A stretch of 64,000 nucleotides of DNA from an uncultured SAR324 cluster bacterium (GTDB lineage: Bacteria > SAR324 > NAC60-12): contig CACIWU010000001.1 of the NCBI GenBank assembly GCA_902590435.1, forward strand, positions 26,921 through 90,920. Reading direction: 5' to 3'. Position 1 is the stretch's first letter. The number at the start of each line of letters is the position of its first letter. Positions 6,720 through 43,266 of this stretch are shown here, piece after piece. The notes under the pieces are model-generated. The model saw nothing but the letters and a program-made list of their open reading frames with translations. It was not told the origin of the DNA and made no database searches. Both the position numbers and the translations under genes were made by a program.

Positions 6720-8411
6720 TCAAGATTTATAAGGAATATACCCTGTAACATCAAGAGTTTCAGGTAATACTTTAACTATAAATTCCTGCATAGGTGATGA
6801 CAATTCAATCTCAAAATGATTTGAAATAGCCATAAAAAAAAGATAAATGAGTCCTCGACAATGCCACATCTGTGAAAGTGTTGTCGTAAAATAAGGATCA
6901 TTTTCTACATGTATAACAGCATTTTTACTAGTTAAAACGTGACCTTCAAACATCAATTTAAAAAAAACATCTGGAAATTCTTCTAATTTCTTCTTTTGTC
7001 CGTGATCAAAAAATGCTGTCCCTATCTGTAAAAGACAATTTTTACCTTTTTCAATCTTGATATTAGAGCCCTTTTCCATTGGCAAATGAATATCGAATGG
7101 AACACAAAACTGAATTAATATGCTCCACTCTGTTTTCCGATCCAAAAAATTTTCATCTTTGTCAGTTTTGCGAAAATATATAGACTTGTCATCATATTTA
7201 CTCAAAGAAACCATCCCCCATCTCTCTGCTGCATTGTATTCCCGTCCACACTGTAAAAGTAATTTCAAAGTAAACTTTTGGCTATCTCCAATTACATGCT
7301 CATCTCTCCCCAAGATCTGTCGGAAGAAACTTGAAAATTCAATTCGATAATCTTCAGCTCTAGGGCAAAAATATGGTGAAGAACATTCTGGAACAGGACA
7401 AAAACTATCGATCATTTCGCTTATAGGTTTAGAATATTTTTTCCTAAGATTTAAATAAGAAAGCATTATACTTTCAATTTTTTTTTGCCCAAAAGAACTA
7501 GATTTGCCTGAATTATCAATTAAATTCTTAACAGTTATTTTTTCATTGGGGATCAAGTTTTGTTTATCTTCTATTTTGAGATTTGATTGACTGCCAAATT
7601 TAATTTTTTCCAAAGAAGTTACATAATTTGATTCTTCTAAATAATTTCCTCTACCTTCATTATTAAAAATATTTTCTTTAACTAGTTTTTCTACAGAACG
7701 AAAATCAAACTTTTCCTCCATTTTTTTAATAGAGAATTTTTCTTCTCTATTGAGTTTAGAGGATAATTTTGTTTGTTGATTTTGATCGTTTTTAAAATTT
7801 GTGGAAATATTGCTATGTCGATATAGAAGATTAAGGAAATATCGATTTTTAAGCATCAAATAAGTTCTATAATTAGAAGAAAATAATGTTCTAAGCCTCT
7901 CTGTAAAAAATATTCGCCTTTGTGCTTTTGTGGTTGATGATACTGTCCCCAAATTATTAGCCAAAACATCTTCTTTATAAAGCTCTAATATACTACATCT
8001 GAGAAAATCACTTAATGCCTCTTCCAATCTAAATTTATAGACACTTAAAGCAGTTGATTCAAGTGAATTGTTCGTAACTTTTTCCAATCTTGGTACAACC
8101 ATCAAAGAACGATAACTTTTTTCTATTCCTGGAATTACAACTTTTAATCCTTTAGAAACATCATAATTAACTGCCAATCTCATTACAGAATTCAAGTCAT
8201 ATAGTTGTAACGAATGTGTAAACGCTTTTTGATCGACAGTAAGATTTGCATTGGGCGAAAATGAATCTGATTCAGCAAAAAAATGAAGTATAGTTGCAGA
8301 TAACCTCGTACTAAATTGTCTTAATATTTCAGCAGCGCCTTTTTCTTTTCCGCGTTTCTGCATTTCCAATTTTATATGCTCTACTCTTTCTTTCCAGTAT
8401 GATTGTTTCAC
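6720..8411 (-). CDS. hypothetical 563-aa soluble protein, no recognisable domain
   Basis: Long uninterrupted ORF with coding-like composition. No TM or signal peptide. Cys cluster CPVPECSSPYFCP. No family recognised by eye. Confidence 0.5.
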   Translation of the reverse strand: MKQSYWKERVEHIKLEMQKRGKEKGAAEILRQFSTRLSATILHFFAESDSFSPNANLTVDQKAFTHSLQLYDLNSVMRLAVNYDVSKGLKVVIPGIEKSYRSLMVVPRLEKVTNNSLESTALSVYKFRLEEALSDFLRCSILELYKEDVLANNLGTVSSTTKAQRRIFFTERLRTLFSSNYRTYLMLKNRYFLNLLYRHSNISTNFKNDQNQQTKLSSKLNREEKFSIKKMEEKFDFRSVEKLVKENIFNNEGRGNYLEESNYVTSLEKIKFGSQSNLKIEDKQNLIPNEKITVKNLIDNSGKSSSFGQKKIESIMLSYLNLRKKYSKPISEMIDSFCPVPECSSPYFCPRAEDYRIEFSSFFRQILGRDEHVIGDSQKFTLKLLLQCGREYNAAERWGMVSLSKYDDKSIYFRKTDKDENFLDRKTEWSILIQFCVPFDIHLPMEKGSNIKIEKGKNCLLQIGTAFFDHGQKKKLEEFPDVFFKLMFEGHVLTSKNAVIHVENDPYFTTTLSQMWHCRGLIYLFFMAISNHFEIELSSPMQEFIVKVLPETLDVTGYIPYKS

Positions 8412-8487: not shown

Positions 8488-9804
8488 TTAATTTATTTTT
8501 TTTAGAAATTTTACAATATCCATATGACCTCTTTCCTCCGCAATGTTAAGGGCTTTCCTATCTAACAAGTCTACTAAATTAGGATCAGCATTTTCTTCCA
8601 ATAATATTTTAACAGTATCAGTACGTCCCTCACTGGCAGACTCCATCAATGCTGTTCTTCCACTTTTACTTTGCCAGTTAATATTTGCGCCGTTTTTTAA
8701 CAAAGAGCGAACAATTTCTGTCCGACCTTCATTTCCAGCAAGCATTAATGGACTTATCCCTTCAGCATCAGCAGCATTCACATCAGCATTCCAATTTATC
8801 AAAAGGCTTACCACACGTTCTCTTCCTTCTATCGTTGCTAACATTAATGCCGTCATTTTTTGATTATCTGCTAGATTAACTTTAGCTCCTGATTCTAAAA
8901 GTCGTTTCACTACTCCATAACGTCCAAAAGAACTAGCTTCCATAAGGGCTGTACGGCCTACGTCATCTGAATCATCAACTTTGGCACCATTATCTAACAA
9001 TTGATTAACTACACTTAAACGCCCTTCAATGGATGCACTTATAAGTTCGTATAGAGGTTCAGAAACTTTAATGTCTTCAGAATCATCGTAAAAATCTACT
9101 TCCTCCCTACTACTTGCAAATAAATTTTCTGTAGTAACTAAATTATTTCTTGAATCTATAGTTTCAGACTTTGCCCCCCTTGATGTTAAATAATTAACAA
9201 CTTCCAAATAACCATTACTAGCAGCGGCTAAAAGTGCTGTAAATCCCTCTTCATTAATAGCATTTATATCCGCACCAGCATCAAGAAGAAGGCGTACAAT
9301 CCCCAAATACCCTTCAAATGCAGCTACAATTAAAGCTGTTTCTCCATATTTAGTGCTGTAATTTACATCTGATTTGTATTCAAGTAATAAACGAACTGCG
9401 GACATTTGTCCTTCGAGAGCGGCAAATATTAATGGAGTAGAACCATCTTCCATAATACTCCTTACACTTGCACCTCGTTCTAACAATATCTTAGTTATCT
9501 CTGAATCACCATACCGCAAAGATAAAGCTAGTGGACTCATCCCCTGAGCATCTTTATTTTCTATTTCTCTAAATACTTCAAGCAATACAAGAGCCGTTTC
9601 TTTATTACCAAAAATAACAGCATGCATAAGTGCATTCCTTCCATTTGAATCAGTCTTTGTCAAATCTATTCCAGAAGCAATTAATTCCCTTATTTGTTTT
9701 GCTTTCCCTTCTTTTGCAACTTGAAATAAATCCAGATTTTCAGCTGCAAAAACCATCGTACTCAAAAAATATATTAACTGGATAATTAAAATAAAAAAAC
9801 GCAT
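8488..9804 (-). CDS. secreted ankyrin-repeat protein
   Basis: N-terminal signal peptide MRFFILIIQLIYFLSTMVFAAEN. At least 9 tandem ~33-aa ankyrin repeats (G-TALM-A---G-----LL--GA--N). Confidence 0.8.
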   Translation of the reverse strand: MRFFILIIQLIYFLSTMVFAAENLDLFQVAKEGKAKQIRELIASGIDLTKTDSNGRNALMHAVIFGNKETALVLLEVFREIENKDAQGMSPLALSLRYGDSEITKILLERGASVRSIMEDGSTPLIFAALEGQMSAVRLLLEYKSDVNYSTKYGETALIVAAFEGYLGIVRLLLDAGADINAINEEGFTALLAAASNGYLEVVNYLTSRGAKSETIDSRNNLVTTENLFASSREEVDFYDDSEDIKVSEPLYELISASIEGRLSVVNQLLDNGAKVDDSDDVGRTALMEASSFGRYGVVKRLLESGAKVNLADNQKMTALMLATIEGRERVVSLLINWNADVNAADAEGISPLMLAGNEGRTEIVRSLLKNGANINWQSKSGRTALMESASEGRTDTVKILLEENADPNLVDLLDRKALNIAEERGHMDIVKFLKKIN

Positions 9805-13341: not shown

Positions 13342-13418
13342 GCACCCGTAGCTCAGCTGGATAGAGCATCAGTTTGCGGTACTGAGGGTCGCACGTTCGA
13401 ATCGTGCCGGGTGCGCCA
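13342..13418 (+). tRNA. tRNA-Arg (anticodon GCG), CCA encoded
   Basis: 77 nt folded by eye. Acceptor GCACCCG/CGGGTGC, D-arm GCTC-AGCTGGATA-GAGC, anticodon stem TCAGT/ACTGA with loop TTGCGGT (U33, anticodon GCG), variable GGGTC, T-arm GCACG-TTCGAAT-CGTGC, discriminator G, CCA. Confidence 0.8.
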
Positions 13419-16130: not shown

Positions 16131-17084
16131 TTAACATAAAGAATCAGACTGAAAAATTTTTATGTGCTCTAAAACGCAAGATGAAAGTGCATTAAGATCA
16201 TATCCTCCCTCTAATAGACTCATGATTCTACCTCCTGAAGTTTTTTGAGCCAACATTTTCAACTCTTTCGTCAATTCTACAAAAGTTTTTTCTGTCAGTT
16301 CCAGAGAAGCTAAAGGATCATCGCGATGTGCATCAAATCCCGCAGATATTAAAACATAATCTGGATTGAATTCTAACAAGTTTGGTTTGACTAAAGTATG
16401 AAAGATGTTTAAATATTCTTCATCACCAATTCCAGGAAGAACTGGGACATTTAGTGTATAACCTAGACCATTAGAACTACCCTTTTCATTAGAGAACCCT
16501 GTCCCTGGATAACAACTTCGAGGATCCTGATGCATACTTACAAAAAAAACATCTGATCTTTCTTCAAAAAAATGTTGTGTCCCATTGCCGTGATGAACAT
16601 CAAAATCAAAAATCAATACTCGTTTAAACCCCATTTTTCTAGTTAAAAATTCTGCTGCAAGGGCTATATTGTTAAAAAAACAAAATCCCATAGCAAAATT
16701 TTGTTCAGCATGATGACCAGGAGGACGCACAGCACAAAATGCATTCTCACATTTACGTTCTGCTACTTCAAGTGCAGCTTCCAAAACTGAGCCTACTGCG
16801 TGCAAAGCTGCATTATAAGTTTGGGAAGAAATAACACAATCAGACGTTCGAAGAATTTTGGCACCACTATGTGAAGCAAATTCAACTTCTGAAATCAATT
16901 TTTCTGTATGAAGCATTTTCACTTCAGATAATGTTGCTAAACGTCCAGGGCAAACCTCCAGTTTTTCTAACAATCCCTCCGATTGTAATTTTTCTTGGAT
17001 CGATCTCAACCGATTTGCGTTCTCAGGATGAGAGCCTGTATCATGTTCCAAATAAATAGGATTTGTGTAAAAACTTGTCTTCAT
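16131..17084 (-). CDS. histone deacetylase/acetoin-utilization (AcuC)/acetylpolyamine amidohydrolase family protein
   Basis: HDAC signature blocks RPPGHHA, DFDVHHGNGTQ, GGYDL. 317 aa. Confidence 0.8.
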   Translation of the reverse strand: MKTSFYTNPIYLEHDTGSHPENANRLRSIQEKLQSEGLLEKLEVCPGRLATLSEVKMLHTEKLISEVEFASHSGAKILRTSDCVISSQTYNAALHAVGSVLEAALEVAERKCENAFCAVRPPGHHAEQNFAMGFCFFNNIALAAEFLTRKMGFKRVLIFDFDVHHGNGTQHFFEERSDVFFVSMHQDPRSCYPGTGFSNEKGSSNGLGYTLNVPVLPGIGDEEYLNIFHTLVKPNLLEFNPDYVLISAGFDAHRDDPLASLELTEKTFVELTKELKMLAQKTSGGRIMSLLEGGYDLNALSSCVLEHIKIFQSDSLC

Positions 17085-17283: not shown

Positions 17284-17802
17284 ATGGCTAATTTAAAAAT
17301 TTATACATTTCCTAACCCTATTTTAAGAAAAAAAGCTGAATCGGTGAAGGTATTTGATCGTTCAATTGCTGATATTGCAAACTCAATGTTAGAAGCAATG
17401 TACAATTCAGATGGAATTGGTTTAGCAGCTATACAAGCAGGCATACTCAAGCGAATAATAGTAATCGATCTGAATAGTGGTATAGAAGATTCCAGCAAAA
17501 GGGAGCCTCATATTTTTGTTAATCCAATAATTTTAAAAGAATCCGGGAATACTGTTTCTGAGGAAGGGTGCTTGAGTGTTATTGATTTTAGGGGAGAAAT
17601 TCAACGTTCGGAAAAAATTACTTTAGAATATCAAGATGTGAATGGAAAAAATGAAAAAATAGAAGCGGAAGGAATGATGTCGATTTGTCTTCAACACGAA
17701 ATTGATCATCTAAATGGAATTTTATTTATTGATCATTTACCTTTCTTAAAACAGAAAATGGTAAAAAAGCGTTTATCCAAACTCTCCAAGGAGTTTGCAT
17801 GA
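17284..17802 (+). CDS. def: peptide deformylase
   Basis: Motifs GIGLAAIQ, EGCLS, QHEIDHLNG. 172 aa. 4-nt overlap (ATGA) with next gene. Confidence 0.9.
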   Translation: MANLKIYTFPNPILRKKAESVKVFDRSIADIANSMLEAMYNSDGIGLAAIQAGILKRIIVIDLNSGIEDSSKREPHIFVNPIILKESGNTVSEEGCLSVIDFRGEIQRSEKITLEYQDVNGKNEKIEAEGMMSICLQHEIDHLNGILFIDHLPFLKQKMVKKRLSKLSKEFA

Positions 17803-18266
17803 AATTAACAAATTCATTTATTTTTAAATTATTTTTACTTTTTTTTTATGTATTTTTTTCAATTAACGTAGAAGTATTTTCCGAAGAAATTAATTATGCG
17901 AAAGCACTTGTCACAACTTCCTCTGGGATTCAAATTCATGTTGAAGTTGCCGATAATTTAATGAAAAGACGTTTGGGATTGGGTAAAAGATCTCATCTTA
18001 AAAAAAACTGGGGAATGTTATTTGTATTTGATAAACTAGAGAAACACCATTTTTGGATGAAGGACATGAATTTCCCTTTGGACATAATTTGGTTAGATAA
18101 TTATAGGATTGTACATATAATTAAGAATGTTAAACCTATACAATCTGGGAATCCTCCTCCAATTTTAAAACCTTTATCTCCAGCAAATTTTGTTCTTGAA
18201 ATTGCAGCAGGACAAGCTAATAAGCTTAAATTGAAGAAAGGTGATATTCTAAGTTACAAATTTTAA
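17799..18266 (+). CDS. DUF192 (COG1430) family periplasmic protein
   Basis: Signal peptide. Conserved RLGLGKRSHLKKNWGMLFVF...FWMKDMNFPLDIIWLD block characteristic of DUF192. Confidence 0.6.
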   Translation: MKLTNSFIFKLFLLFFYVFFSINVEVFSEEINYAKALVTTSSGIQIHVEVADNLMKRRLGLGKRSHLKKNWGMLFVFDKLEKHHFWMKDMNFPLDIIWLDNYRIVHIIKNVKPIQSGNPPPILKPLSPANFVLEIAAGQANKLKLKKGDILSYKF

Positions 18267-18291: not shown

Positions 18292-19632
18292 ATGAATTCA
18301 TCAAATGAAGGGAAAAAAACTATTTGTATTGTGGATGATGAAGTAGCGATTCGTGATACTCTTGAGAATGTTCTTTTAGATGAAGGATATAATGTACTTT
18401 CATGTAAAGACTCTAAAGACTTTTTTAAAATGTTGGAGAACAAAACTCCTTCTTTAGTACTTTTGGATATTTGGCTTCCAGGCATAGACGGAATGGCTAT
18501 TCTTAACAGGCTTCGTGGCAGTCATCCTACCCTACCTGTCATTATGATAAGTGGACATGCTGGTATAGATTCAGCGGTTAATGCAATAAAAATGGGAGCA
18601 GTTGATTTTATGGAAAAACCGTTGCGTCTTGAAATATTGCTCGACAAACTTTCCCAAGTACTATCTAAAAAACCTTCTGAAAAATTAAAAGATATTGCTT
18701 CAGACACCAGGATGGAAGTTGCAAAAATAATCAACCCAATTATTCCTTCTGGTGCTATTAGACTTAAAGATTCCAATCGTCCTCAGCGAACATTAAAAAA
18801 TAATGTTGTTTTAAATGGTAAAGGTCTTTTAACAGGGCGTAATACTGGAATTATTTTAAGTCCACTTGATGTTAATTCAGGTATAATTTTCCAAACTTTG
18901 GATGACAAATCCGTGCCGGCACATATCACAAACATAGAAAATTTCTCTCAATCTGTAGCAAAACAGTCTTTTTCTGCAAATTCAACAGTTTTAGCATGCG
19001 AAAATCGAAGAGTGATGACTGTAGAACATCTAATGGCTTCATTACATATGGCGGGTATAACTAACATATTAGCAAAAGTAGATGAAGAAATTCCAAATAT
19101 TGATGGATCTGCAGCTGATTTTAGTAAGCTTATCAGAGAAGCCGGAATTCAGGATCAGAGAGTCTTAGCTAAAGATGCAGTTGTTTTAGAACCAATCCAA
19201 GTAGGAAGAAAAAAATTGGATGAGAAACACCTTTTTGTAGAACCTTTTGATGGATTTGAGATTGATATGCGAGTAGATTTTTCAGATCCAATAGGGGAAC
19301 AAAAACTTATTTTTAATACAGAGATAGATTCTTTTGATAAGGATATTGCTCCCGCACGCTCTTTTAACACTTTTGAAAATATTGATATTGCACAAAAAAA
19401 AGGTACGGTTGGTAGTGGTTATTTAGATTCTCACATAATCATGCATGAAGGAAAAGTAATTAATACTGAATTAAGATATCAAGATGAATTTGTTCGTCAC
19501 AAAATACTTGATTTAATTGGTGACCTATACTTGCTAGGTTATTCTCTAAAAGGTCGAGTTGTAGCTAACATGACATCACATGGATATAATCAAGCACTAG
19601 TCCAAAAACTTCACGTTGCACTTACTACCTGA
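18292..19632 (+). CDS. lpxC: response-regulator receiver (REC) domain fused to UDP-3-O-acyl-N-acetylglucosamine deacetylase LpxC
   Basis: Residues ~8-125 are a CheY-like REC domain (IVDDE...LVLLDIWLPGIDG...MISGH...AVDFMEKP). Residues ~160-446 are a full LpxC domain with TVEHLM, EIPNIDGSAA, zinc/catalytic HKILDLIGDLY and C-terminal His. Confidence 0.8.
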   Translation: MNSSNEGKKTICIVDDEVAIRDTLENVLLDEGYNVLSCKDSKDFFKMLENKTPSLVLLDIWLPGIDGMAILNRLRGSHPTLPVIMISGHAGIDSAVNAIKMGAVDFMEKPLRLEILLDKLSQVLSKKPSEKLKDIASDTRMEVAKIINPIIPSGAIRLKDSNRPQRTLKNNVVLNGKGLLTGRNTGIILSPLDVNSGIIFQTLDDKSVPAHITNIENFSQSVAKQSFSANSTVLACENRRVMTVEHLMASLHMAGITNILAKVDEEIPNIDGSAADFSKLIREAGIQDQRVLAKDAVVLEPIQVGRKKLDEKHLFVEPFDGFEIDMRVDFSDPIGEQKLIFNTEIDSFDKDIAPARSFNTFENIDIAQKKGTVGSGYLDSHIIMHEGKVINTELRYQDEFVRHKILDLIGDLYLLGYSLKGRVVANMTSHGYNQALVQKLHVALTT

Positions 19633-19733: not shown

Positions 19734-20156
19734 ATGCGTCATCAAGCACGATCATACGCACTTCAAGCACTATTTCAAGCTGATCTTCTCCAAAGCAAAG
19801 CAATGAAACACGCAGACCGTTTTTTTGATCAACTTGACACAAGTCAAGAGACAAAATCATTCGCTAGAGAACTTGTAGAAGGAACTCTAAAACATCGTAA
19901 ATATTTAGATCGTTATTTACGGCAAAATCTAGAAAACTGGAAGCTTAGCAGGCTATCTACAACAGTTAGAAACATATTACGTCTCGGAACCTATGAATTA
20001 TTTAACCATCCAGAAACATCGCACAGTGTAGTAATCAATGAAGCTATTGAACTTTGTAAGGATTTCGTAGACGATACTTCTCATGGTATCACAAATCGTG
20101 TCTTACAAAAAGTTTTTGACCAAATATCAAAAGAAAGGGAATCAAAAATAATTTAA
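19734..20156 (+). CDS. nusB: transcription antitermination factor NusB
   Basis: 140 aa. N-terminal RHQARSYALQALFQ and overall NusB-like helical pattern. Confidence 0.8.
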   Translation: MRHQARSYALQALFQADLLQSKAMKHADRFFDQLDTSQETKSFARELVEGTLKHRKYLDRYLRQNLENWKLSRLSTTVRNILRLGTYELFNHPETSHSVVINEAIELCKDFVDDTSHGITNRVLQKVFDQISKERESKII

Positions 20157-24982: not shown

Positions 24983-26065
24983 ATGATCTCAAAGAAAATA
25001 CTTGTTATCCCTGGAGACGGTATCGGCCCTGAAGTGACTGCTCCTTCTATTCAAGTTTTAAAGCAAATAGCATCGCAATTTGATATTCAATTGGAATTAA
25101 CAGAAAAATTAGTTGGTGGAGTAGCATATGATTTGACTGGTACTCCAATTCCGGATGATACACTCGATGCCGCAAAAAACTCTGATGCAATTCTACTAGG
25201 TGCAGTTGGTGGGCCAAAATGGGAACCTCTGGATTTTTCTGTAAGGCCAGAACGCGGTTTATTGAAATTACGCTCTGAATTAGAATTATACGCAAATTTA
25301 CGTCCTGCAGTAATATATGGAGATTTGGTAAATGCTTCAACACTTAAACCAGAAGTTGTAGATGGTGCTGACTTAATGGTAGTGCGAGAATTAACTGGAG
25401 GGATTTACTTCGGTGAACCACGTGGAGTAGAATTAAGAAATGGTGAACGTGTTGGTTTTAATACTCTGATTTACTCTGAATCGGAAATTAGAAGAATAGC
25501 AAAAATTGGTTTTGAAATTGCCATGAAACGCGGTAAAATACTAACTTCTATAGATAAAGCTAATGTTTTGGAATCAACAGAATTATGGAGAGAGATTACA
25601 ACTGAAGTTGGTAAGGATTTCCCTGAAGTTAAACTAGGGCATATGTATGCAGATAATGCCGCAATGCAGATTATTCGTAATCCAAAACAATTTGATACAA
25701 TGGTCACAACAAATATGTTTGGTGACATTCTAAGTGATGCAGCAGCTATGATGACTGGTTCTCTTGGAATGTTGCCTTCAGCAAGTATTGGTGGAGGAAA
25801 CGGAATGTATGAACCAGTGCATGGTTCTGCTCCAGACATAGCTGGTAAAGACAAAGCCAACCCTCTTGCGATGATTTTGTCAGTAGGCATGATGCTCCGA
25901 TATTCTTTTGATTTAATACATGCTGATGAACTCATTAAACACTCCGTTGTTAAAACTCTTGAGAACTACCGTACAAAAGACATTATGGCTGAAGGCAAAA
26001 AACTTGTGGGATGCAAAGAAATGGGAGAGAGAGTTCTCCAATCTCTGGAAAAAAAATACAATTGA
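24983..26065 (+). CDS. leuB: 3-isopropylmalate dehydrogenase
   Basis: 360 aa. [36 protein letters not shown] signature blocks. Confidence 0.9.
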
Positions 26066-26169
26066 GGTATTCTTTCTCAAAAGTAAAATTTTTTTTATAC
26101 AGACTCCGCTTTCAAGGAGTAAAACTGAAGTCTCGTTTTTCCAGAATAATACAACTGTTAATTGAACTA

Positions 26170-27345
26170 ATGGTTACAAACTGGCTGCTTAAAGGTCAGT
26201 CTTTGTCGAGTTTTTTTAGAAACGCCCATCCAAATTTACTTCTTCAAAAAAAAACCTTACTAGAAAATTATAAAAGTAAGACAGTTATCTTTTTCACATT
26301 CAGGACACTTCATTTTGTTGACTGGTTTGCTCCTATTCATTTGGCAATTCAACAAGATTTCCCTGGAAAGTATGAAATATTTTACATCGATTTCTCAACT
26401 ACTTTGCACCGAATTGGTAGAGGATTTGAATATATAAACTTTCAAAAACAAGTAGAGGAACGTCTTACTCAATTGGGAATTTCACATTTATATCATTTTT
26501 CTCATGAAGAGCTTTCAGATTTTTCTTCTCACCCAAATCCTTCAATTCTCATAACATGTGAATCAATAAGGCAAGAATCTTTTTCAGTTGAGGAGCGAAT
26601 TTATCTCCCTCACTATATTCTACCAAAGTCAAATGAAACAGATCTTCCATCAAACATAAGATTTAACCACGTATTTCTTCCTAGTATCCCTCCTTATTCA
26701 TACAGGCTTCTTAAAAATTCAAAATCAAAAACAAAATTTCATTATGTTGGATATCCAAAACTTTGCACAAGATCAGCACCTATAAATTCTTTCTTCGATT
26801 CTAACTTACCCGTAGTACTTTATGCCCCCTCGCTGGATCTTAAACTAATCTTTGACGCTATAGACAAAGGAATTTTAGAAATTTTCAAAGAGATGACATT
26901 TTGTAATATCATAATAAAACTTCACCCTTCTCTTGCATCAAGAAGACACTACATTACAACTTTTTTAAGTGAACAACTCAAACTTGAAGAGCACATTATG
27001 ATTGATGAGCTCTCTGGGATTCAAAGTTTAGCCACGGAATCTAAAATTTTGGTAGCAGATTTCGGAAGTATGGGAGGTGAATATAGGTTAAGGTTTGGTA
27101 AGCGGGTAGTTTTTCTTGAAACACCAAAGAAATATGAAGGTGGAGCAGATTTAATCTTTAGAGATGATTTTGCAGATTCAATATGTAATGTAAAAAACTT
27201 GGGGAATACAATTTCAAATTTGTTAAAAAAAGGGAATCTCTCGAAATCTGAATTAGAAATTATGCGTCAGAAAGTTTTAAGTTATACTGGAGAGTCTGAT
27301 AAAAAAGCAGCTAGATCCATTGACGAAATTTGCTCTAAAACATGA
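26170..27345 (+). CDS. hypothetical protein in glycosylation cluster (ORF open from 26011; internal ATG at 26170 avoids overlap with leuB)
   Basis: Long ORF, coding-like. No recognised motif. Flanked by envelope-sugar genes. Start uncertain. Confidence 0.45.
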   Translation: MVTNWLLKGQSLSSFFRNAHPNLLLQKKTLLENYKSKTVIFFTFRTLHFVDWFAPIHLAIQQDFPGKYEIFYIDFSTTLHRIGRGFEYINFQKQVEERLTQLGISHLYHFSHEELSDFSSHPNPSILITCESIRQESFSVEERIYLPHYILPKSNETDLPSNIRFNHVFLPSIPPYSYRLLKNSKSKTKFHYVGYPKLCTRSAPINSFFDSNLPVVLYAPSLDLKLIFDAIDKGILEIFKEMTFCNIIIKLHPSLASRRHYITTFLSEQLKLEEHIMIDELSGIQSLATESKILVADFGSMGGEYRLRFGKRVVFLETPKKYEGGADLIFRDDFADSICNVKNLGNTISNLLKKGNLSKSELEIMRQKVLSYTGESDKKAARSIDEICSKT

Positions 27346-28559: not shown

Positions 28560-30329
28560 TTAATAAATTTTTCCACTTGTTTCGTCTCTAAATTGTATCT
28601 CATATAATTTCTGGTAACGCCCTCCCTTCAACAGCAATTCCTCGTGAGAACCTTCTTCTACGATTTGTCCATCCTCCATTACACATATTCTATCCGCATT
28701 TCTAATTGTTGATAGTCTATGAGCAATCACGATTGTTGTACGATTTTCCATTAAATGTTCTATCGCCTGCTGTACTTCAATTTCTGACTCAGAGTCCAAA
28801 GCAGAAGTGGCTTCATCCAGAATAAGAATAGGGGCATCTTTTACTAATGCCCTAGCAATCGAGAGTCTTTGCCTTTGCCCACCTGATAGTCTAGTCCCTT
28901 TTTCACCTATTACAGTTTGGTATCCATTGGGTTGTTCTGAAATAAATAAATGCGCATTAGCGGCCCTTGCCGCTGCATACATACGTTCTTTTGAACATTC
29001 AGGCTGACCGTAAGTTATATTACTTGCGATAGTATCATTAAAAAGGATTGTATCTTGGGTAACTATGGCAATTAATTTTCGAAGAGAGATTAAATCTAAG
29101 TCTCGTAAATCATGTCCGTCAATTTTAATTTCTCCTCTTGTTACATCATAAAAACGTGGAATCAAATTTGCTACAGTAGTTTTACCCGCACCGCTACTGC
29201 CTACCAAAGCAACTGCCTCTCCTTTTTGTACAATTAGTCTAAAATCATTAACAGAAGGTTCATCTTTTTCAGGATAGTGAAAAGCCTTAACATTTAAATT
29301 TATTTCTCTATTAAAGCTCATTAATTTTTCAGCATTAGGTGAATTAACAATATCGTCTTTGACATCAAGTATGTCAAAAATCCTCCTCACTGCTGCCAAA
29401 CCTTCCTGTAACTTTAAGTTAAATCCATTTAATTTTTTTACTGGCTCATTCAACATAAAAAAACTAATTAAAAAAGAGGTGAAATCACCAGGGGTAATCT
29501 GATCATTTATTATTAGATAACCACCGAAAGCTACAATAGTAGCTCCTGCTGCAGCACCTATAATTTCAATTATTGGATATGAATAAGAATCAATCATTAT
29601 AGAGCGCATGTGATTATTGTAGAGGTCGTTATTAGATTCACTAAAACGCTTACTTTCATATTTTTCCATTCCGAAGGCTTTAACAACTCGAATCCCAGAA
29701 ATTGTTTCCACTAGTAAACTACTTAGGCCTCCAAAACTAATCTGTCTTTTGCTTACTGCTATTTTATTTCGACGACCAAAAATTTGTATAAAAAATACTG
29801 CAACAGGAATAATAACCATGGTCACTATTGCAAGCTCCCAACTACGAAAAAACATTATCCCAATTAAAATAAAAAATTGCGGAATATCACGAAAAGGCCC
29901 CGTAACACCTATTTGCAACATATTTTGGAAAACATGTAAATCGTTAGTAAATCTTGAAATAAGATCACCAGTTTTTGATCGTGCAAAAAATGTAAGTGAA
30001 AGATTTACTAGATGATCAAAAAGATTTTGCCTTAGTTTTACAATAAGACTTTGGATCAGATGACCTACGCTAAAATTATGGCCAAAAAAAAACAATCCCT
30101 TAATCGCGAAGACAATTATCATTCCAAGTCCCACTAAAAAATACTGCTCAAGCTCCGGTTTATCTCCATAAACAATAGCATCCACTATATCTTTAGCATA
30201 GTATGCTGGAGCGGCTGTAAAAATGTTATAACCACCCATGCAAAATATACTGAAAATCACCCATGTCTTGAGAGGCGCAATAAGACTAAAAATACGCAAT
30301 AAAATATTTTTTGATTTTTCCTTCGTCAT
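28560..30329 (-). CDS. msbA: ABC transporter permease/ATPase, MsbA-like lipid exporter
   Basis: 6-TM N-domain plus NBD with Walker A GSSGAGKTT, signature LSGGQRQRLSIARAL, Walker B ILILDEATSALD. Confidence 0.8.
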   Translation of the reverse strand: MTKEKSKNILLRIFSLIAPLKTWVIFSIFCMGGYNIFTAAPAYYAKDIVDAIVYGDKPELEQYFLVGLGMIIVFAIKGLFFFGHNFSVGHLIQSLIVKLRQNLFDHLVNLSLTFFARSKTGDLISRFTNDLHVFQNMLQIGVTGPFRDIPQFFILIGIMFFRSWELAIVTMVIIPVAVFFIQIFGRRNKIAVSKRQISFGGLSSLLVETISGIRVVKAFGMEKYESKRFSESNNDLYNNHMRSIMIDSYSYPIIEIIGAAAGATIVAFGGYLIINDQITPGDFTSFLISFFMLNEPVKKLNGFNLKLQEGLAAVRRIFDILDVKDDIVNSPNAEKLMSFNREINLNVKAFHYPEKDEPSVNDFRLIVQKGEAVALVGSSGAGKTTVANLIPRFYDVTRGEIKIDGHDLRDLDLISLRKLIAIVTQDTILFNDTIASNITYGQPECSKERMYAAARAANAHLFISEQPNGYQTVIGEKGTRLSGGQRQRLSIARALVKDAPILILDEATSALDSESEIEVQQAIEHLMENRTTIVIAHRLSTIRNADRICVMEDGQIVEEGSHEELLLKGGRYQKLYEIQFRDETSGKIY

Positions 30330-33572: not shown

Positions 33573-34874
33573 TTAAATTTCAACACCCATACGAGGTAAC
33601 AATGGCTTAACTAAATCTCCAATTGTTATATTATTATTAAAATCCCAATTCAAACCTAAAATAAGATCCAGTGGGAAAATCGTTTGTGCTGATTCGTCTT
33701 GGCATAGACCGCTTGTAAAAGCACTTACATTAACTGAATGAACTACTTCTTTATCAAGTAAATCACTCTTTAACCATCTTCTTTTAAAATCCGAAAGATA
33801 TTCAACTTGTTCAAAACTACCAAAACAAATCATCCCATTTAAAAAACTTAAAGTTGTAAAAACTAAAAATAAACTAGGACACAACCTTCCTTTTTCAAGT
33901 TCTCTAATAATTTCTTCCAACGAAAGTTCAAGTTTGTAGTTCTGACTAATTAACAATCCATTTTTTAAGATAACTGATTGTTGTCGAACTTTTTTTTTAT
34001 AGATGCCTTCTATTGAGAAGAAAGGTAATTCTGCAGGGAAAAAACCTAAAATTTTTTCTCTAATTTTTGAATTAAAAAAAATGGTATGTAATGGATGATC
34101 TGATTTTTTCAAAACTTTTATCAAATAATTACGCACAACTTCATTAATATCAAAATAAAAAATTGATTTATCTTTAATAATATAACGCAATTGATTTTCA
34201 CAAAACCGGGTAGCCCAAATCGAAAAATCATCTCCCTTTTTTGCTTGAGGTGTTAATTCGCGAATTGGATCCGCAAAATATGGGATTTGATCAACAAGCC
34301 TATCGGGAATCTTACTTTGAAAAACAAGATTATTCTTCATATTTCCCGGTATTAATGAAATTCTGCGTTCGGAAGAATCTCTTAAACGATCAAAATCAGA
34401 TCTTTTTAAATCTGAAAATCCTTTATATTCTCTTGAAATAACATCCGCCAATTCAAAACGGTTACTATAATTCAAACAACCTGACCAAGCAGAATTTGTA
34501 AAAGAAACGCCGGAATAAGTACCAACAAAATAAGTTTCCTTGGGAGGCATTCCCAACAATGATAAATGATGTAAAGCTAAAAAAGTTGGTCCTTCAGATA
34601 CAGTTAAGTGAGTCGCTGTCTGAATTACTCGTGTTTCCTCTAATCTATTTAAAAATATTTTTGCTTCATACAAACCAATACCAACCCTTAAAAACTCTTT
34701 TTCAAAAGCCTCTCTCAATGCATTCTCCATGGGAGGTTTATTTGAAGTTTTTTGCCAGAGAATATTTGAATATTCAGAAACTGGTAAATCCCATGCTTTT
34801 TCTAATATACTTGCTAGAATAGGTCTTTTGGCTTTATAAAGTAAATCTTTAATATTATTTTTGTCAGACATCAT
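33573..34874 (-). CDS. hypothetical 433-aa soluble protein upstream of nuoM
   Basis: Long ORF, no TM, no recognised family. Same strand, 200-nt gap to nuoM. Confidence 0.5.
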   Translation of the reverse strand: MMSDKNNIKDLLYKAKRPILASILEKAWDLPVSEYSNILWQKTSNKPPMENALREAFEKEFLRVGIGLYEAKIFLNRLEETRVIQTATHLTVSEGPTFLALHHLSLLGMPPKETYFVGTYSGVSFTNSAWSGCLNYSNRFELADVISREYKGFSDLKRSDFDRLRDSSERRISLIPGNMKNNLVFQSKIPDRLVDQIPYFADPIRELTPQAKKGDDFSIWATRFCENQLRYIIKDKSIFYFDINEVVRNYLIKVLKKSDHPLHTIFFNSKIREKILGFFPAELPFFSIEGIYKKKVRQQSVILKNGLLISQNYKLELSLEEIIRELEKGRLCPSLFLVFTTLSFLNGMICFGSFEQVEYLSDFKRRWLKSDLLDKEVVHSVNVSAFTSGLCQDESAQTIFPLDLILGLNWDFNNNITIGDLVKPLLPRMGVEI

Positions 34875-42090: not shown

Positions 42091-43266
42091 TTGAATCTTA
42101 TTGGTGTAGGAATTTCAAAAGAAGTTGACCCGAATATAGCGATTAATGAAGTAATATATTCAGCTGTAATTCAGACAAAACTTCCTAAAGTAAATTGGAT
42201 ATTAATATTTTTTACTCCAGATCATTTTTTACATGCAGGCCTTATCCATGAACTAATTCTCGAAAAAACAAATTGCAAATGTGTTACAGGTTGCAGCGGG
42301 ATGGGCGTTCTTTGGCAAAAAGAAGAGATCACTAATGGTCCTGGATTAGTTTTAATGGCTGGATACACACCAGAATTGAGAACCCTTGCTTTGGCAAAAT
42401 TTCAAGAATTAGAACATAGCATAGGAGTTACTCAACAACTTTCAGAAGCTTTAGAAGAATTTACTAACAAAAATCCTCTTTTTTTATTTTTTCCAGATGT
42501 GTTTAGGCATCAACCACAAAATTTTATCAATATGTTTAACTTCCTCAAAAACAAACCTATTGTTTTTGGAGCAGGATCTTGCAACAACGGGAATCAACAA
42601 ACTTCAATTCAATTTGGCCCTGATATAATAACACTAAATGGTGCAGGAGGAATGGCCTTTGAAGGTATACCTAAATTTTGTGCAGGAGTTACTCAGTCGT
42701 GTACAACCTTTGGAGAACCAATGTTTGTAACGGAAGTAAAAGACGATATAATAGTCTCTCTAGATGGAATTCCTGCTTTAGAGGTTTTTACTGAAGTTGC
42801 AAAAGAATTGGGAGTAAATGATATTGAGGAGGCTGCTCAACAGTTGTTGCTTAGTTTCCCTCTAAATCCGTCACAACCAATTTTCACTGGAGATGGCTCA
42901 ATAGCTCGCCATATTACCGGAATTGATGTCCCTTCACAAGGAATTACAACTTCAGAAATAGTACAAGAGGGAGGAGTTGTTTCTTTTGCTTATCGTAGTC
43001 AAAAATCAGCGGAAGAAGATCTAATACTAATGTTGAAACGTTTGAAAAAACAAAACAATGATAAACCAACCTTTGGGATATATTTCAATTGTGCTTCTCG
43101 TGGGGAAGCTCTATATGGGAGACCAAATGTTGATATTGAATTTATAAGAGAAATTTTAGGAGAATTCCCTCTTATTGGTTTTTTTGGTGGATACGAAATG
43201 GCTCAAATGCCTCAAGGAGTACAATTATATTCTTACACAGGAGTTCTCGTTTTAATATACCTGTAA
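42091..43266 (+). CDS. FIST (N+C) domain sensory protein
   Basis: 391 aa. C-terminal FIST_C-like signature PLIGFFGGYEMAQ...SYTGVLVLI. N-terminal half consistent with FIST_N. Confidence 0.5.
   Translation: MNLIGVGISKEVDPNIAINEVIYSAVIQTKLPKVNWILIFFTPDHFLHAGLIHELILEKTNCKCVTGCSGMGVLWQKEEITNGPGLVLMAGYTPELRTLALAKFQELEHSIGVTQQLSEALEEFTNKNPLFLFFPDVFRHQPQNFINMFNFLKNKPIVFGAGSCNNGNQQTSIQFGPDIITLNGAGGMAFEGIPKFCAGVTQSCTTFGEPMFVTEVKDDIIVSLDGIPALEVFTEVAKELGVNDIEEAAQQLLLSFPLNPSQPIFTGDGSIARHITGIDVPSQGITTSEIVQEGGVVSFAYRSQKSAEEDLILMLKRLKKQNNDKPTFGIYFNCASRGEALYGRPNVDIEFIREILGEFPLIGFFGGYEMAQMPQGVQLYSYTGVLVLIYL

What the first reader, a model, noticed from the sequence alone, without database searches (positions are those of the whole stretch)
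18292..19632. In-frame fusion of a CheY-like receiver domain to a complete, catalytically intact LpxC
Seen: residues ~8-125 contain all REC hallmarks (acidic pocket DDE, phospho-acceptor Asp in LVLLDIW, T/S and K positions). A ~35-aa linker follows. The LpxC domain retains zinc/catalytic residues (TVEHL, HKILDLIGD, C-terminal His). Established: LpxC catalyses the committed step of lipid A synthesis and is normally regulated post-translationally (for example FtsH/LapB proteolysis in Enterobacteria). Inference: phosphorylation-dependent control of lipid A flux by a two-component kinase would be a distinct regulatory solution. I do not know of a described REC-LpxC fusion. Gene context is def-DUF192-(REC-lpxC)-nusB.
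Basis: partly seen in the sequence, partly recalled or inferred. Interest (0 to 1): 0.65.

Follow-up and report, generated by a model that had tools for sequence, protein, structure and literature searches.

The report
NtrX-type receiver fused to LpxC
A marine SAR324-type bacterium makes the enzyme for the committed step of lipid A (outer-membrane) synthesis as one protein with a phosphorylation-receiver domain. It is the smallest form of an undescribed, multi-phylum family of NtrX–LpxC fusions, which suggests a two-component kinase controls this enzyme directly.

Summary
Window 18292..19632 (+) is one uninterrupted 446-aa ORF. It has a receiver domain (Pfam Response_reg, residues 11-120, 100 bits), a ~40-aa linker and a complete LpxC (165-440, 239 bits, above the TIGR00325 equivalog cutoff). 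All receiver phospho-chemistry residues and all LpxC zinc and catalytic residues are present. It is not an assembly artefact. More than 120 cluster representatives from independent assemblies share the architecture at 81-100% identity, and 64 of the top 150 50%-identity representatives carry REC+LpxC.

The new finding is that the receiver is NtrX-type. Relatives form a series: REC–degenerate AAA+–HTH_8–LpxC (~730 aa), REC–HTH–LpxC (~500 aa) and REC–linker–LpxC. In four of five long or medium loci examined, the gene lies directly downstream of an NtrY kinase. One lineage lost ntrY, the AAA+/HTH module and the phospho-acceptor Asp together.

The most likely function is direct, phosphorylation-dependent control of LpxC by an NtrY-type kinase. 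This is inferred and not shown. No kinase lies in the window, and AlphaFold2 predicts no fixed docking of the two domains.

I found no description in the literature I could search, including a 2025 review of lipid A regulation. Verdict: a new variant of a known kind (response regulator with an enzymatic output). Interest 0.68.

The parts
18292..19632 (+). Complete REC–linker–LpxC ORF (446 aa plus TGA stop)
   Evidence: a single frame with no internal stop. P0001 in the protein collection is 100% identical.
18319..18666 (+). NtrX-type receiver (REC) domain, residues ~10-125
   Evidence: Pfam PF00072 100.1 bits. The best NCBIfam response-regulator model is NtrX, NF051870, at 115 bits. The Brucella NtrX receiver 4d6x scores 101 bits, against 79.7 for FixJ and 79.5 for NtrC. 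AlphaFold2 predicts a (βα)5 fold, mostly pLDDT >90.
18334..18339 (+). Acidic-pocket Asp pair D15, D16 (CheY D12/D13 equivalents)
   Evidence: for the codons. Conserved in 120-121 of 121 SAR324-clade sequences. Across 37 family representatives, position 15 is D in 34 (E in 3) and position 16 is D in 36.
18466..18468 (+). Predicted phospho-acceptor Asp D59 (in LVLLDIW)
   Evidence: Conserved 121/121 in the SAR324 clade and 35/37 across the family. The exceptions are P0154 (N) and P0156 (S).
18550..18552 (+). Switch residue S87 (CheY T87 equivalent)
18616..18618 (+). Conserved Lys K109 (CheY K109 equivalent)
18667..18783 (+). Inter-domain linker, residues ~126-164. It is conserved within the SAR324 clade, but AlphaFold2 models it with low confidence.
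   Evidence: Mean column conservation is 0.93, against 0.95 for REC and 0.97 for LpxC. pLDDT is <50 for residues 127-151 and 127-145. No HTH_8 remnant is detectable (E 2.1).
18784..19629 (+). LpxC (UDP-3-O-acyl-GlcNAc deacetylase) domain, residues 165-446
   Evidence: Pfam PF03331 239.2 bits. TIGR00325 193.2, above the 187.25 cutoff. P. aeruginosa LpxC 7phn E 8.6e-41. Foldseek TM 0.88 (7cid) and 0.93 (A. aeolicus 1yh8), rmsd 1.8 Å.
19024..19029 (+). E245 and H246, equivalent to E. coli LpxC E78 (general base) and H79 (Zn ligand)
   Evidence: 37/37 across the family. In the SAR324 clade E245 is 121/121 and H246 is 120/121.
19498..19524 (+). HKILDLIGD motif: H403 and D407 (Zn ligands H238 and D242), K404 (K239), D411 (D246)
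   Evidence: Invariant in all family representatives.
19579..19581 (+). H430, equivalent to E. coli H265 (general acid). Only 16 residues follow it.
18847..18849 (+). G186, a signature residue of the fused clan (96% of fused LpxC domains, 0% of unfused)
19075..19077 (+). K262, a signature residue of the fused clan (93% of fused; none of the 34 unfused LpxCs has K, and most have E or D). It is a candidate contact with REC.
   Evidence: Among the fused forms in the tree set it is replaced only in the phospho-null P0154 and in P0201; the truly unfused P0161 nested in this group also lacks it.
17284..18266 (+). Context: def and DUF192, same strand. They overlap each other by 4 nt, and DUF192 ends 25 nt before REC-lpxC. 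Probably one transcription unit.
   Evidence: The synteny is conserved in SAR324 relatives.
19734..20156 (+). Context: nusB, 101 nt downstream on the same strand
   Evidence: No terminator-like site lies between the genes.

Best explanation
The gene encodes one polypeptide with an NtrX-type two-component receiver domain tethered by a ~40-residue linker to a catalytically competent LpxC, the committed enzyme of lipid A synthesis. It is the minimal member of a family of NtrX::LpxC fusions found in SAR324, Nitrospinota, Ca. Entotheonellia, 'Deltaproteobacteria' MAGs and a Spirochaetota genome. In that family the central AAA+ and HTH modules of NtrX are degenerate and have been lost repeatedly, while REC and LpxC are always kept.

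Proposed mechanism (inferred): an NtrY-type histidine kinase, encoded elsewhere in the SAR324 genome, phosphorylates D59. The resulting change at the α4-β5-α5 face of REC alters dimerisation or a transient REC–LpxC contact and so changes LpxC output. This would put lipid A flux under direct post-translational two-component control. Naturally phospho-null members keep an intact LpxC, so the unphosphorylated form is probably active and phosphorylation more likely lowers activity. That direction would match NtrYX repressing lpxC in alphaproteobacteria.

Shown: the architecture, residue integrity, conservation, the NtrX type of the receiver, NtrY linkage in relatives, and co-loss of the kinase and the acceptor Asp in one lineage. 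Inferred: that phosphorylation occurs in SAR324, that it changes LpxC activity, and in which direction.
For: Both domains pass curated thresholds and all functional residues are present.

In 121 SAR324-clade sequences D16, D59, S87 and K109 are invariant and D15 is present in 120. All listed LpxC residues are invariant except H246, present in 120.

Across 37 divergent full-length family representatives, the phospho-acceptor D59 is kept in 35, the other four receiver positions in 34-36, and the LpxC catalytic residues in 37.

The receiver is NtrX-type: NF051870 NtrX is the best response-regulator model, and the Brucella NtrX receiver scores 101 bits, about 20 bits above FixJ and NtrC.

Relatives have REC–Sigma54_activat–AAA_lid–HTH_8–LpxC and REC–HTH_8–LpxC architectures.

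The long or medium gene lies directly downstream of an NtrY-type kinase in four independent loci, L004, L006, L014 and L093. In L093 the two genes overlap by 8 nt.

The AAA+ module is degenerate: 0 of 18 have GAFTGA, 0 of 18 have a canonical Walker B, and Walker A is kept in about half.

Short and medium forms nest inside long forms with high support: P0154 with P0127 and P0174 at 99/100, P0137 with P0133 at 100/100, P0136 with P0130 at 72/100. This indicates repeated loss of the central modules with REC retained.

A natural experiment supports NtrY as the cognate kinase. L004 reads glnD-phoH-ybeY-mutS-ntrY-fusion-lolA-rseP. Its sister locus L095 has the same order without ntrY, without AAA+/HTH and with D59N.

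LpxC domains of all fused forms form one clan against the 34 closest unfused LpxCs in 166 of 200 NJ bootstraps. They share signature residues G186 and K262 that unfused LpxC lacks.

There is an independent functional link. NtrYX represses lpxC and lowers LPS in R. sphaeroides and C. crescentus (PMC7240162; review PMC12444477).

The window also encodes an MsbA-like lipid A exporter.
Against: No histidine kinase, second REC or AAA+ gene occurs in the 64-kb window or within 10 kb in SAR324 relatives. All five short-form lineages examined are orphaned from a kinase. One long form (Nitrospina sp., L096) is also not next to ntrY.

AlphaFold2 predicts no confident inter-domain arrangement. pTM is 0.66 with 22 sequences and 0.71 with 59, and the linker stays below pLDDT 50. 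There is therefore no structural support for a particular allosteric route.

Two family members (P0154, P0156) have lost the phospho-chemistry but keep LpxC, so the REC–LpxC pairing can persist without phosphorylation.

The window's LpxC group contains a truly unfused LpxC (P0161). A separate origin of this particular fusion is therefore not excluded.

The trees are distance-based only. Whether this is the genome's only lpxC is unknown.
Confidence: 0.6

Rival explanations
1. The receiver controls the amount of LpxC, not its catalysis. The phosphorylation state would expose or hide a degradation signal or recruit a protease, giving a built-in counterpart of FtsH/LapB or Lon control of LpxC.
For: Regulated proteolysis is the dominant known mode of LpxC control (review PMC12444477). 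The fused proteins have only a short tail after the catalytic His (median 17 aa, 16 in the window, against up to 52 in unfused LpxCs). From memory, the E. coli FtsH degron lies in that tail, so a different handle would be needed here. AlphaFold2 shows a disordered but conserved linker. Genes with Lon-related domains lie near two relatives (L092 and L009), which is only anecdotal.
Against: No protease or adaptor gene is consistently linked to the fusion across the loci examined. Nothing in the sequence identifies a degron. Most REC–enzyme fusions I know of act on activity (from memory: CheB, PleD, RpfG).
Confidence: 0.15
2. The receiver no longer signals in SAR324. It would be a structural or dimerisation appendage, or an evolutionary leftover, and the fusion would persist only because it once coupled lpxC expression to the ntrYX operon.
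For: No kinase lies near the gene in any short-form lineage. Phospho-null members P0154 and P0156 exist with an intact LpxC. The AAA+ and HTH modules of the same ancestral protein did decay.
Against: D16, D59, S87 and K109 are invariant and D15 is present in 120 of 121 SAR324-clade sequences spanning 79-100% identity. W61 and F106 are also invariant. The REC domain is about as conserved as LpxC (0.95 against 0.97). In the one lineage where the kinase was demonstrably deleted, the acceptor Asp changed to Asn. The intact Asp in SAR324 therefore suggests a kinase is still present. REC is kept through at least three independent reductions that removed everything else.
Confidence: 0.12
3. The SAR324 REC–LpxC arose by a separate fusion of an NtrX-like receiver to LpxC, convergent with the Nitrospinota-type NtrX::LpxC family and not by reduction of it. 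This concerns origin and does not exclude the best explanation's mechanism.
For: In the NJ tree the window's group (WIN, P0121, P0122, P0123) is separate from the large fused group and includes a truly unfused LpxC, P0161, in a STAS–YggT–LpxC context. No HTH or AAA+ remnant is detectable in the linker. Synteny is not shared with the other group. P0161 lacks the fused-clan signatures G186 and K262.
Against: Both groups together form a clan against the 34 closest unfused LpxCs in 166 of 200 bootstraps. Both receivers are NtrX-type with invariant W61. Both groups share G186 and K262, which none of the 34 unfused sequences has. Loss of REC in the P0161 lineage explains the data equally well.
Confidence: 0.2
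4. Sequencing or assembly artefact, or a frameshift that joins two separate genes.
For: None was found. The only basis is the prior that unusual fusions in MAG-derived contigs can be chimeric.
Against: The same fused ORF occurs in more than 120 90%-identity cluster representatives from ENA, JGI, NCBI, Tara and Logan assemblies. It occurs in divergent lineages at 29-59% identity and on contigs of up to several Mb. GC content is uniform across the junction. The linker is conserved.
Confidence: 0.01

Closest known systems
LpxC (UDP-3-O-acyl-N-acetylglucosamine deacetylase; PF03331 / TIGR00325)
   Same: The C-terminal 280 residues are a full LpxC. They score above the equivalog cutoff and have the Zn ligands H246, H403, D407 and catalytic E245, H430, K404, D411. 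The predicted fold superposes on solved LpxC structures (TM 0.88-0.93).
   Different: It carries an N-terminal receiver domain and linker. T191 (E. coli numbering) is Ser in the SAR324 group. There is a ~10-residue insertion at 215-227. G186 and K262 are signatures of the fused clan. The C-terminal tail is short and lacks the long enterobacterial extension.
NtrX, the response regulator of the NtrY/NtrX two-component system (NF051870; PDB 4d6x, 5m7n)
   Same: The receiver is the closest match to NtrX by profile and by solved structure. Motifs such as DDEV.IRD, LDIWL, MISGH and DF.EKP are shared. Longer relatives have the whole NtrX architecture and sit downstream of ntrY. As in NtrX, the AAA+ module of those relatives lacks GAFTGA (NtrX is listed as an atypical EBP in PMC6158489).
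   Different: The window protein has no AAA+ and no HTH_8 domain, so it cannot act as a transcription factor. Its output is an enzyme. No ntrY is adjacent.
Response regulators with an enzymatic output, such as CheB (REC–methylesterase), PleD/WspR (REC–GGDEF) and RpfG (REC–HD-GYP)
   Same: The logic is the same: an N-terminal receiver, a flexible linker and a C-terminal catalytic domain whose activity is expected to depend on Asp phosphorylation. This comparison rests on established knowledge of these families, from memory.
   Different: The output domain is unrelated to any of these. LpxC acts in an essential biosynthetic pathway, not in signalling or second-messenger turnover. I found no LpxC output domain described in the searchable literature.
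Known LpxC control systems: FtsH/LapB/YejM proteolysis (Enterobacteria), Lon (alphaproteobacteria), MurA activation (Pseudomonas), and transcriptional control by NtrYX and ChvGI
   Same: The target and the presumed purpose are the same: setting flux through the committed lipid A step. The NtrYX connection is shared with R. sphaeroides and C. crescentus.
   Different: Here the regulator is covalently part of the enzyme, so control would be direct and specific to LpxC. [quoted passage not shown]
Bifunctional LpxC–FabZ fusion (NF009667)
   Same: It is another natural LpxC fusion protein.
   Different: In that fusion the partner is C-terminal and metabolic (FabZ). The window protein scores 167.9 against a cutoff of 465 and has no FabZ part.

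Membership tests
LpxC (TIGR00325 / PF03331) | Profile score above the curated threshold | tested here: met
   PF03331 239.2 bits (cutoff 27). TIGR00325 equivalog 193.2 bits (cutoff 187.25).
LpxC (TIGR00325 / PF03331) | Zn2+ ligands His79, His238, Asp242 and catalytic Glu78, His265, Lys239, Asp246, Thr191 (E. coli numbering) | tested here: met
   H246, H403, D407, E245, H430, K404 and D411 are present. The T191 position is Ser357, a conservative change shared by the SAR324 group.
LpxC (TIGR00325 / PF03331) | Two-domain LpxC fold | tested here: met
   In the AlphaFold2 model the LpxC part is mostly pLDDT >90. Foldseek gives 7cid E 1.3e-29, TM 0.88, rmsd 1.8 Å, and A. aeolicus 1yh8 TM 0.93.
LpxC (TIGR00325 / PF03331) | Deacetylase activity on UDP-3-O-acyl-GlcNAc | not testable with these tools
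   This needs an enzyme assay or complementation of an lpxC conditional mutant.
Response regulator receiver domain (PF00072) | Profile score above threshold and a (βα)5 fold | tested here: met
   100.1 bits (cutoff 30.2). AlphaFold2 predicts five β-strands alternating with five helices over residues 10-125.
Response regulator receiver domain (PF00072) | Quintet of phospho-chemistry residues (CheY D12, D13, D57, T87, K109) | tested here: met
   D15, D16, D59, S87 and K109 are present. In the SAR324 clade D15 is 120/121 and the other four are 121/121.
Response regulator receiver domain (PF00072) | Phosphorylation by a cognate histidine kinase | not testable with these tools
   No kinase occurs in the window. 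An NtrY-type partner is inferred from relatives.
NtrX (NF051870 equivalog) | Full REC–AAA+–HTH_8 architecture, scoring above the equivalog cutoff | tested here: not met
   115.1 bits against a cutoff of 600. Only profile positions 3-118 of 452 match. No AAA+ or HTH is detectable. The window protein has an NtrX-type receiver but is not an NtrX.
NtrX (NF051870 equivalog) | Receiver domain closest to NtrX receivers | tested here: met
   NtrX is the best response-regulator model. PDB 4d6x and 5m7n (Brucella NtrX) score 101 and 100 bits, against 79.7 for FixJ and 79.5 for NtrC.
NtrX (NF051870 equivalog) | Encoded next to ntrY | tested here: not met
   Not met in the window or in SAR324 relatives. 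Met for long or medium relatives in L004, L006, L014 and L093, and not met in L096.
NtrX::LpxC fusion family (defined here) | NtrX-type REC at the N-terminus and LpxC at the C-terminus of one ORF, with the LpxC domain in the fused clan carrying G186 and K262 | tested here: met
   Architecture. Clan: 166 of 200 bootstraps. G186 and K262 are present.
LpxC–FabZ bifunctional protein (NF009667) | C-terminal FabZ dehydratase domain and a score above cutoff | tested here: not met
   167.9 bits against a cutoff of 465. Only the LpxC part matches.
FtsH/LapB-regulated enterobacterial LpxC | Extended C-terminal tail that carries the FtsH degron | tested here: not met
   Only 16 residues follow the catalytic His (fused-family median 17; unfused LpxCs up to 52). 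The degron sequence itself was not compared. Its position in the E. coli tail is from memory.

The most novel reading that the evidence does not exclude
NtrY–NtrX is, in these lineages and perhaps ancestrally, a dedicated outer-membrane and lipid A homeostasis phosphorelay that acts directly on the LpxC protein. [quoted passage not shown] On this reading the fusions are a 'Rosetta stone', and the transcriptional NtrYX–lpxC link seen in alphaproteobacteria reflects a direct NtrX–LpxC functional coupling. K262 and G186 on LpxC would mark the receiver-responsive surface.
Probability: 0.3. Interest if true: 0.82.

Novelty: new variant of a known kind. Interest (0 to 1): 0.68.

Why it matters
LpxC catalyses the committed and usually essential step of lipid A synthesis. 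It is a major antibiotic target, and how bacteria set its activity is an active question. The known answers are FtsH/LapB/YejM, Lon, MurA and transcriptional two-component control.

A receiver domain built into the enzyme would be a different solution: direct phosphorylation-dependent control by a sensor kinase. The same two modules, REC and LpxC, are kept through repeated loss of everything between them, in several phyla, and the gene is tied to ntrY. This gives strong comparative evidence for a specific NtrYX–LpxC connection. The 2025 review of the field treats that connection as non-specific.

The idea can be tested with recombinant protein. It would also help explain why NtrYX mutants have envelope and LPS phenotypes. 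SAR324 and Nitrospinota are abundant in the dark ocean, so the mechanism may be ecologically widespread.

Tried and rejected
1. Exact look-up of the window protein (P0001) in the contig index found nothing on record. I took context from the 83%-identical P0095 instead.

2. I looked for an HTH_8 or junction remnant in the window's linker, using an HMM built from long and medium forms. Nothing was found (E 2.1), so the linker cannot be shown to derive from NtrX's C-terminal part.

It sampled 600 stretches, mostly ordinary LpxCs, and returned only 3 fused loci (L012-L014). It found no close SAR324 genome, so it cannot be used to count species.

4. The AFDB50 fold search, meant to list UniProt entries with the architecture, was not available.

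5. AlphaFold2 with 22 and with 59 sequences gave pTM 0.66 and 0.71 and a low-confidence linker.

6. The promoter and terminator scan was uninformative: 16 promoter-like sites against 14.4 expected, and 0 terminators.

7. Three apparently 'unfused' LpxCs nested among fused forms were checked. P0122 and P0188 touch the ends of contigs of about 0.9 kb and are probably truncated. P0198 was not looked up, but it carries all the fused-clan signatures. P0161 is truly unfused.

8. Nine literature searches with different term sets found no description of a REC/NtrX–LpxC fusion. The 2006 response-regulator census paper is not held, so it could not be checked.

9. I could not find the SAR324 kinase or test for a second lpxC, because no tool searches within a single genome. 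I judged a further database search with NtrY unlikely to bring up SAR324 hits among the top 120, and did not run it.
Full report
**1. The observation**

Window 18292..19632 (+) is a single 446-aa ORF with an ATG start, a TGA stop and no internal stop. Pfam places a Response_reg domain at residues 11-120 (100.1 bits, E 1.1e-28) and an LpxC domain at 165-440 (239.2 bits, E 7.5e-71). The NCBIfam lpxC equivalog TIGR00325 scores 193.2 against a cutoff of 187.25.

The best solved relatives are P. aeruginosa, E. coli and A. aeolicus LpxC for the C-terminal part (E down to 8.6e-41), and receiver domains for the N-terminal part.

The receiver has D15, D16, E17, D59 (in LVLLDIW), S87 and K109, plus the aromatic switch position F106. 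LpxC has E245/H246 (E. coli E78/H79), H403/K404/D407/D411 (H238/K239/D242/D246) and H430 (H265). Position T191 is Ser357.

The neighbours are def, DUF192 and nusB on the same strand, as stated. GC content is the same in the REC part, the linker, the LpxC part and the window as a whole (0.33-0.36).

**2. Not an artefact, and not a one-off**

The protein collection holds an identical protein (P0001). It also holds more than 120 90%-identity cluster representatives at 81-100% identity with the same two Pfam domains. They come from ENA, JGI, NCBI, Tara and Logan assemblies, and one is named 'SAR324 cluster bacterium'.

Loci of an 83%-identical relative have the same order: LPG_synthase_TM / HDAC / def / DUF192 / REC-LpxC / nusB / GNAT / GT2.

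In 121 SAR324-clade sequences spanning 79-100% identity, D16, D59, W61, S87, F106 and K109 are invariant and D15 is present in 120. The LpxC catalytic residues are invariant apart from one sequence with H246D. The linker is nearly as conserved as the domains: 0.93, against 0.95 for REC and 0.97 for LpxC.

An exhaustive search of 1.84 billion 50%-identity representatives found 64 proteins among the top 150 that carry both REC and LpxC. Their identity to the window protein goes down to about 29%.

**3. What the N-terminal module is**

The receiver is not a generic CheY. The best NCBIfam response-regulator model is NtrX (NF051870, 115 bits, ahead of FixJ at 99.9 and NtrC at 84.5). The best solved receivers are Brucella NtrX 4d6x and 5m7n at 101 and 100 bits, about 20 bits above FixJ and NtrC. 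Long shared motifs include DDEV.IRD, LDIWL, P.V.MISGH and DF.EKP.

The relatives explain this. Pfam on representatives shows three architectures:
- REC–Sigma54_activat–AAA_lid_14–HTH_8–LpxC, about 650-736 aa. Examples are P0124 and P0128 (Nitrospinota), P0131 ('Deltaproteobacteria') and P0339 (Nitrospina sp.).
- REC–HTH_8–LpxC, about 483-505 aa. Examples are P0136 (Nitrospinota) and P0137 (Ca. Entotheonellia).
- REC–linker–LpxC, 412-461 aa. Examples are the window protein, P0121, P0123 and P0155 (a Spirochaetota genome).

Source databases call these proteins either 'LpxC' or 'NtrX'. No NCBIfam model among the listed matches covers the whole fusion.

The spacer between REC and LpxC forms a graded series of 24-66, 72-114 and 258-347 residues.

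In the long forms the AAA+ module is degenerate. None of 18 has GAFTGA, none has a canonical Walker B, and about half keep Walker A. This resembles NtrX, an atypical enhancer-binding protein with a variant GAFTGA motif (PMC6158489).

**4. Link to a kinase**

In four independent long or medium loci the fused gene lies directly downstream of a ~740-750-aa NtrY-type kinase (NtrY_N–HAMP–PAS–HisKA–HATPase_c). The neighbourhood recurs: (mutS)–DUF4390–ntrY–fusion–(purM/purN)–lolA–rseP. These loci are L004/L005, L006/L007, L014 and L093. In L093 ntrY and the fusion overlap by 8 nt. One Nitrospina long form (L096) is not next to ntrY.

The short forms have no adjacent kinase. This holds for SAR324 (L001-L003 and the window), L011, L012, L013, L092 and L095. 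The 64-kb window has no NtrY-like kinase, no second REC, no AAA+ activator and no second LpxC.

**5. A natural experiment**

P0154 is a short form. Its LpxC domain groups with the long forms P0127 and P0174 in 99 of 100 bootstraps, at 75% LpxC identity to P0127.

The locus of the long form P0277, a member of the P0127 cluster, reads glnD–phoH–ybeY–mutS–ntrY–[REC-AAA-HTH-LpxC]–lolA–rseP (L004). The P0154 locus reads glnD–phoH–ybeY–mutS–[REC-LpxC]–lolA–rseP, with only 227 nt where ntrY would be (L095).

A pairwise alignment shows an internal deletion of about 280 residues that removes AAA+ and HTH. In P0154 the phospho-acceptor is Asn.

So the kinase, the central modules and the acceptor Asp went together, while REC and a fully intact LpxC stayed. 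I draw three inferences:
- NtrY is the cognate kinase of the fused receiver.
- The unphosphorylated fusion is a working LpxC.
- Where the Asp quintet is strictly kept, as in SAR324, a kinase is probably still acting.

**6. Evolution**

In an NJ tree of LpxC domains (46 fused-clan sequences and 34 unfused ones), short, medium and long forms are interleaved. P0137 groups with P0133 in 100/100 bootstraps, P0154 with P0127 and P0174 in 99/100, and P0136 with P0130 in 72/100. This indicates at least three independent reductions.

The window protein belongs to a separate, fully supported group (WIN, P0121, P0122, P0123, P0161; 200/200). This group and the large group together form a clan against the 34 closest unfused LpxCs in 166 of 200 bootstraps.

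The fused clan shares residues that unfused LpxC lacks. G186 is present in 96% of fused against 0% of unfused. K262 is present in 93% against 0%, where unfused LpxC mostly has E or D.

Among the fused forms, K262 is replaced only in the kinase-less, phospho-null P0154 and in P0201; the truly unfused P0161 also lacks it. This makes it a candidate REC-related contact, but it rests on three cases.

P0161 is truly unfused. It lies in a STAS–YggT–LpxC context on a 35-kb contig. The window's group therefore either lost REC once or gained it separately. I give the separate-origin reading 0.2.

The general pattern is that REC and LpxC are always kept while AAA+ and HTH decay. This is the main argument that the selected function is REC acting on LpxC.

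**7. Structure**

AlphaFold2 folds both domains confidently. Mean pLDDT is 85.7 and most blocks exceed 90. The LpxC part superposes on solved LpxCs with TM 0.88-0.93 and rmsd 1.8 Å.

Residues 127-151 have pLDDT below 50 and pTM is 0.66. A 59-sequence alignment raised pTM only to 0.71. No fixed docking of REC on LpxC is predicted.

This fits a flexible tether, with regulation through dimerisation or transient contact. It neither supports nor excludes a CheB-like occlusion of the active site.

Only 16 residues follow the catalytic His (family median 17; unfused LpxCs up to 52). The long enterobacterial C-terminal tail is therefore absent.

**8. Mechanism proposed**

Shown: a catalytically complete LpxC is covalently linked to an NtrX-type receiver with phosphorylation-competent residues, in a family genetically tied to NtrY.

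Inferred: an NtrY orthologue elsewhere in the SAR324 genome phosphorylates D59. The conformational change in the receiver alters LpxC output.

Phospho-null members retain LpxC, and NtrYX lowers lpxC expression and LPS in R. sphaeroides and C. crescentus (PMC7240162; PMC12444477). I therefore favour an active unphosphorylated state and a down-regulating phosphorylated state, at roughly 55:45.

The rivals are control of stability instead of catalysis (0.15), a non-signalling leftover receiver (0.12) and an artefact (0.01).

**9. Comparison with what is known, and novelty**

The protein is a member of the LpxC family and of the receiver-domain family, and it meets all the sequence and fold criteria for both. 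It is not a member of NtrX proper: it scores 115 bits against a cutoff of 600, has no AAA+ or HTH, and has no adjacent ntrY. Its receiver is nonetheless of NtrX type.

It would work like the response regulators with enzymatic outputs (CheB, PleD, RpfG), but with an output domain not reported for that class.

Nine full-text searches found no description of a REC–LpxC or NtrX–LpxC fusion. The 2025 JBC review of lipid A regulation does not contain the words 'fusion', 'fused' or 'response regulator'. It describes NtrYX control of lpxC as transcriptional and non-specific. A related precedent is the NtrC-type regulator DVU2934 of D. vulgaris, whose single mapped target is the lpxC promoter (PMC3333781).

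The sequences are in public databases, annotated only as LpxC or NtrX. I rate the finding a new variant of a known kind, with interest 0.68.

**10. Limits**

- The organism label (SAR324) comes from a named relative at 83% identity.
- The trees are distance-based, and the unfused comparison set consists only of the best-scoring representatives.
- I could not establish whether the fused gene is the only lpxC, or whether SAR324 encodes NtrY.
- The direction and mode of regulation are inferred.

Noticed in passing
window 28560..30329 (-): A 589-aa ABC exporter that best matches the lipid A flippase MsbA (TIGR02203, 540.5 bits, just under the 602 cutoff). This suggests the organism exports lipid A/LPS.
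   Followed up: partly
window 8488..9804 (-): A 438-aa protein made almost entirely of ankyrin repeats (Ank_2, 242 bits), which is unusual for a free-living marine bacterium.
   Followed up: no
window 6720..8411 (-), 26011..27345 (+), 33573..34874 (-), 59224..60780 (+): Four large ORFs (563, 444, 433 and 518 aa) with no Pfam hit; the 444-aa ORF also has no NCBIfam hit. The 444-aa ORF overlaps the 3' end of leuB (24983..26065) by 55 nt.
   Followed up: no
window 42091..43266 (+): A FIST/FIST_C sensor-domain protein of 391 aa, followed by a 204-aa ORF. It is the only signalling-type protein found among the window ORFs scanned.
   Followed up: no
window 16131..17084 (-): A histone-deacetylase-family (class II HDAC-like) gene, divergently oriented just upstream of def. 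The block LPG_synthase_TM / HDAC / def / DUF192 / REC-lpxC / nusB / GNAT / GT2 is conserved in SAR324 relatives.
   Followed up: partly
L095 7001..8365 (P0154), compared with L004 7715..12211: Sister loci differ by loss of ntrY, an internal ~280-aa deletion of the AAA+/HTH module, and D59N in the receiver. This is a natural kinase-less, phospho-null version of the fusion.
   Followed up: yes
protein P0156 (695 aa, long form): Its receiver has E-N-S-S-Q at the five phospho-chemistry positions, so it looks like a pseudo-receiver, while LpxC is intact. Its genomic context was not examined.
   Followed up: no
L009 999..1850 (P0161): A truly unfused 283-aa LpxC in a STAS–YggT–LpxC context. It nests within the window's LpxC group but lacks the fused-clan signature residues G186 and K262.
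   Followed up: partly
L006 7176..7748, L093 4135..4740: A DUF4390 gene lies immediately upstream of ntrY in two distant loci, and lolA and rseP recur downstream of the fusion. This suggests a conserved envelope-related gene neighbourhood.
   Followed up: partly
L001 / L003 2321..3596: SAR324 relatives carry an IS200-type Y1 transposase and a HigB/HigA toxin-antitoxin pair about 7 kb upstream of the fusion. Whether the window has counterparts at that position was not checked; a tRNA gene lies in that general region of the window, at 13342..13415.
   Followed up: no
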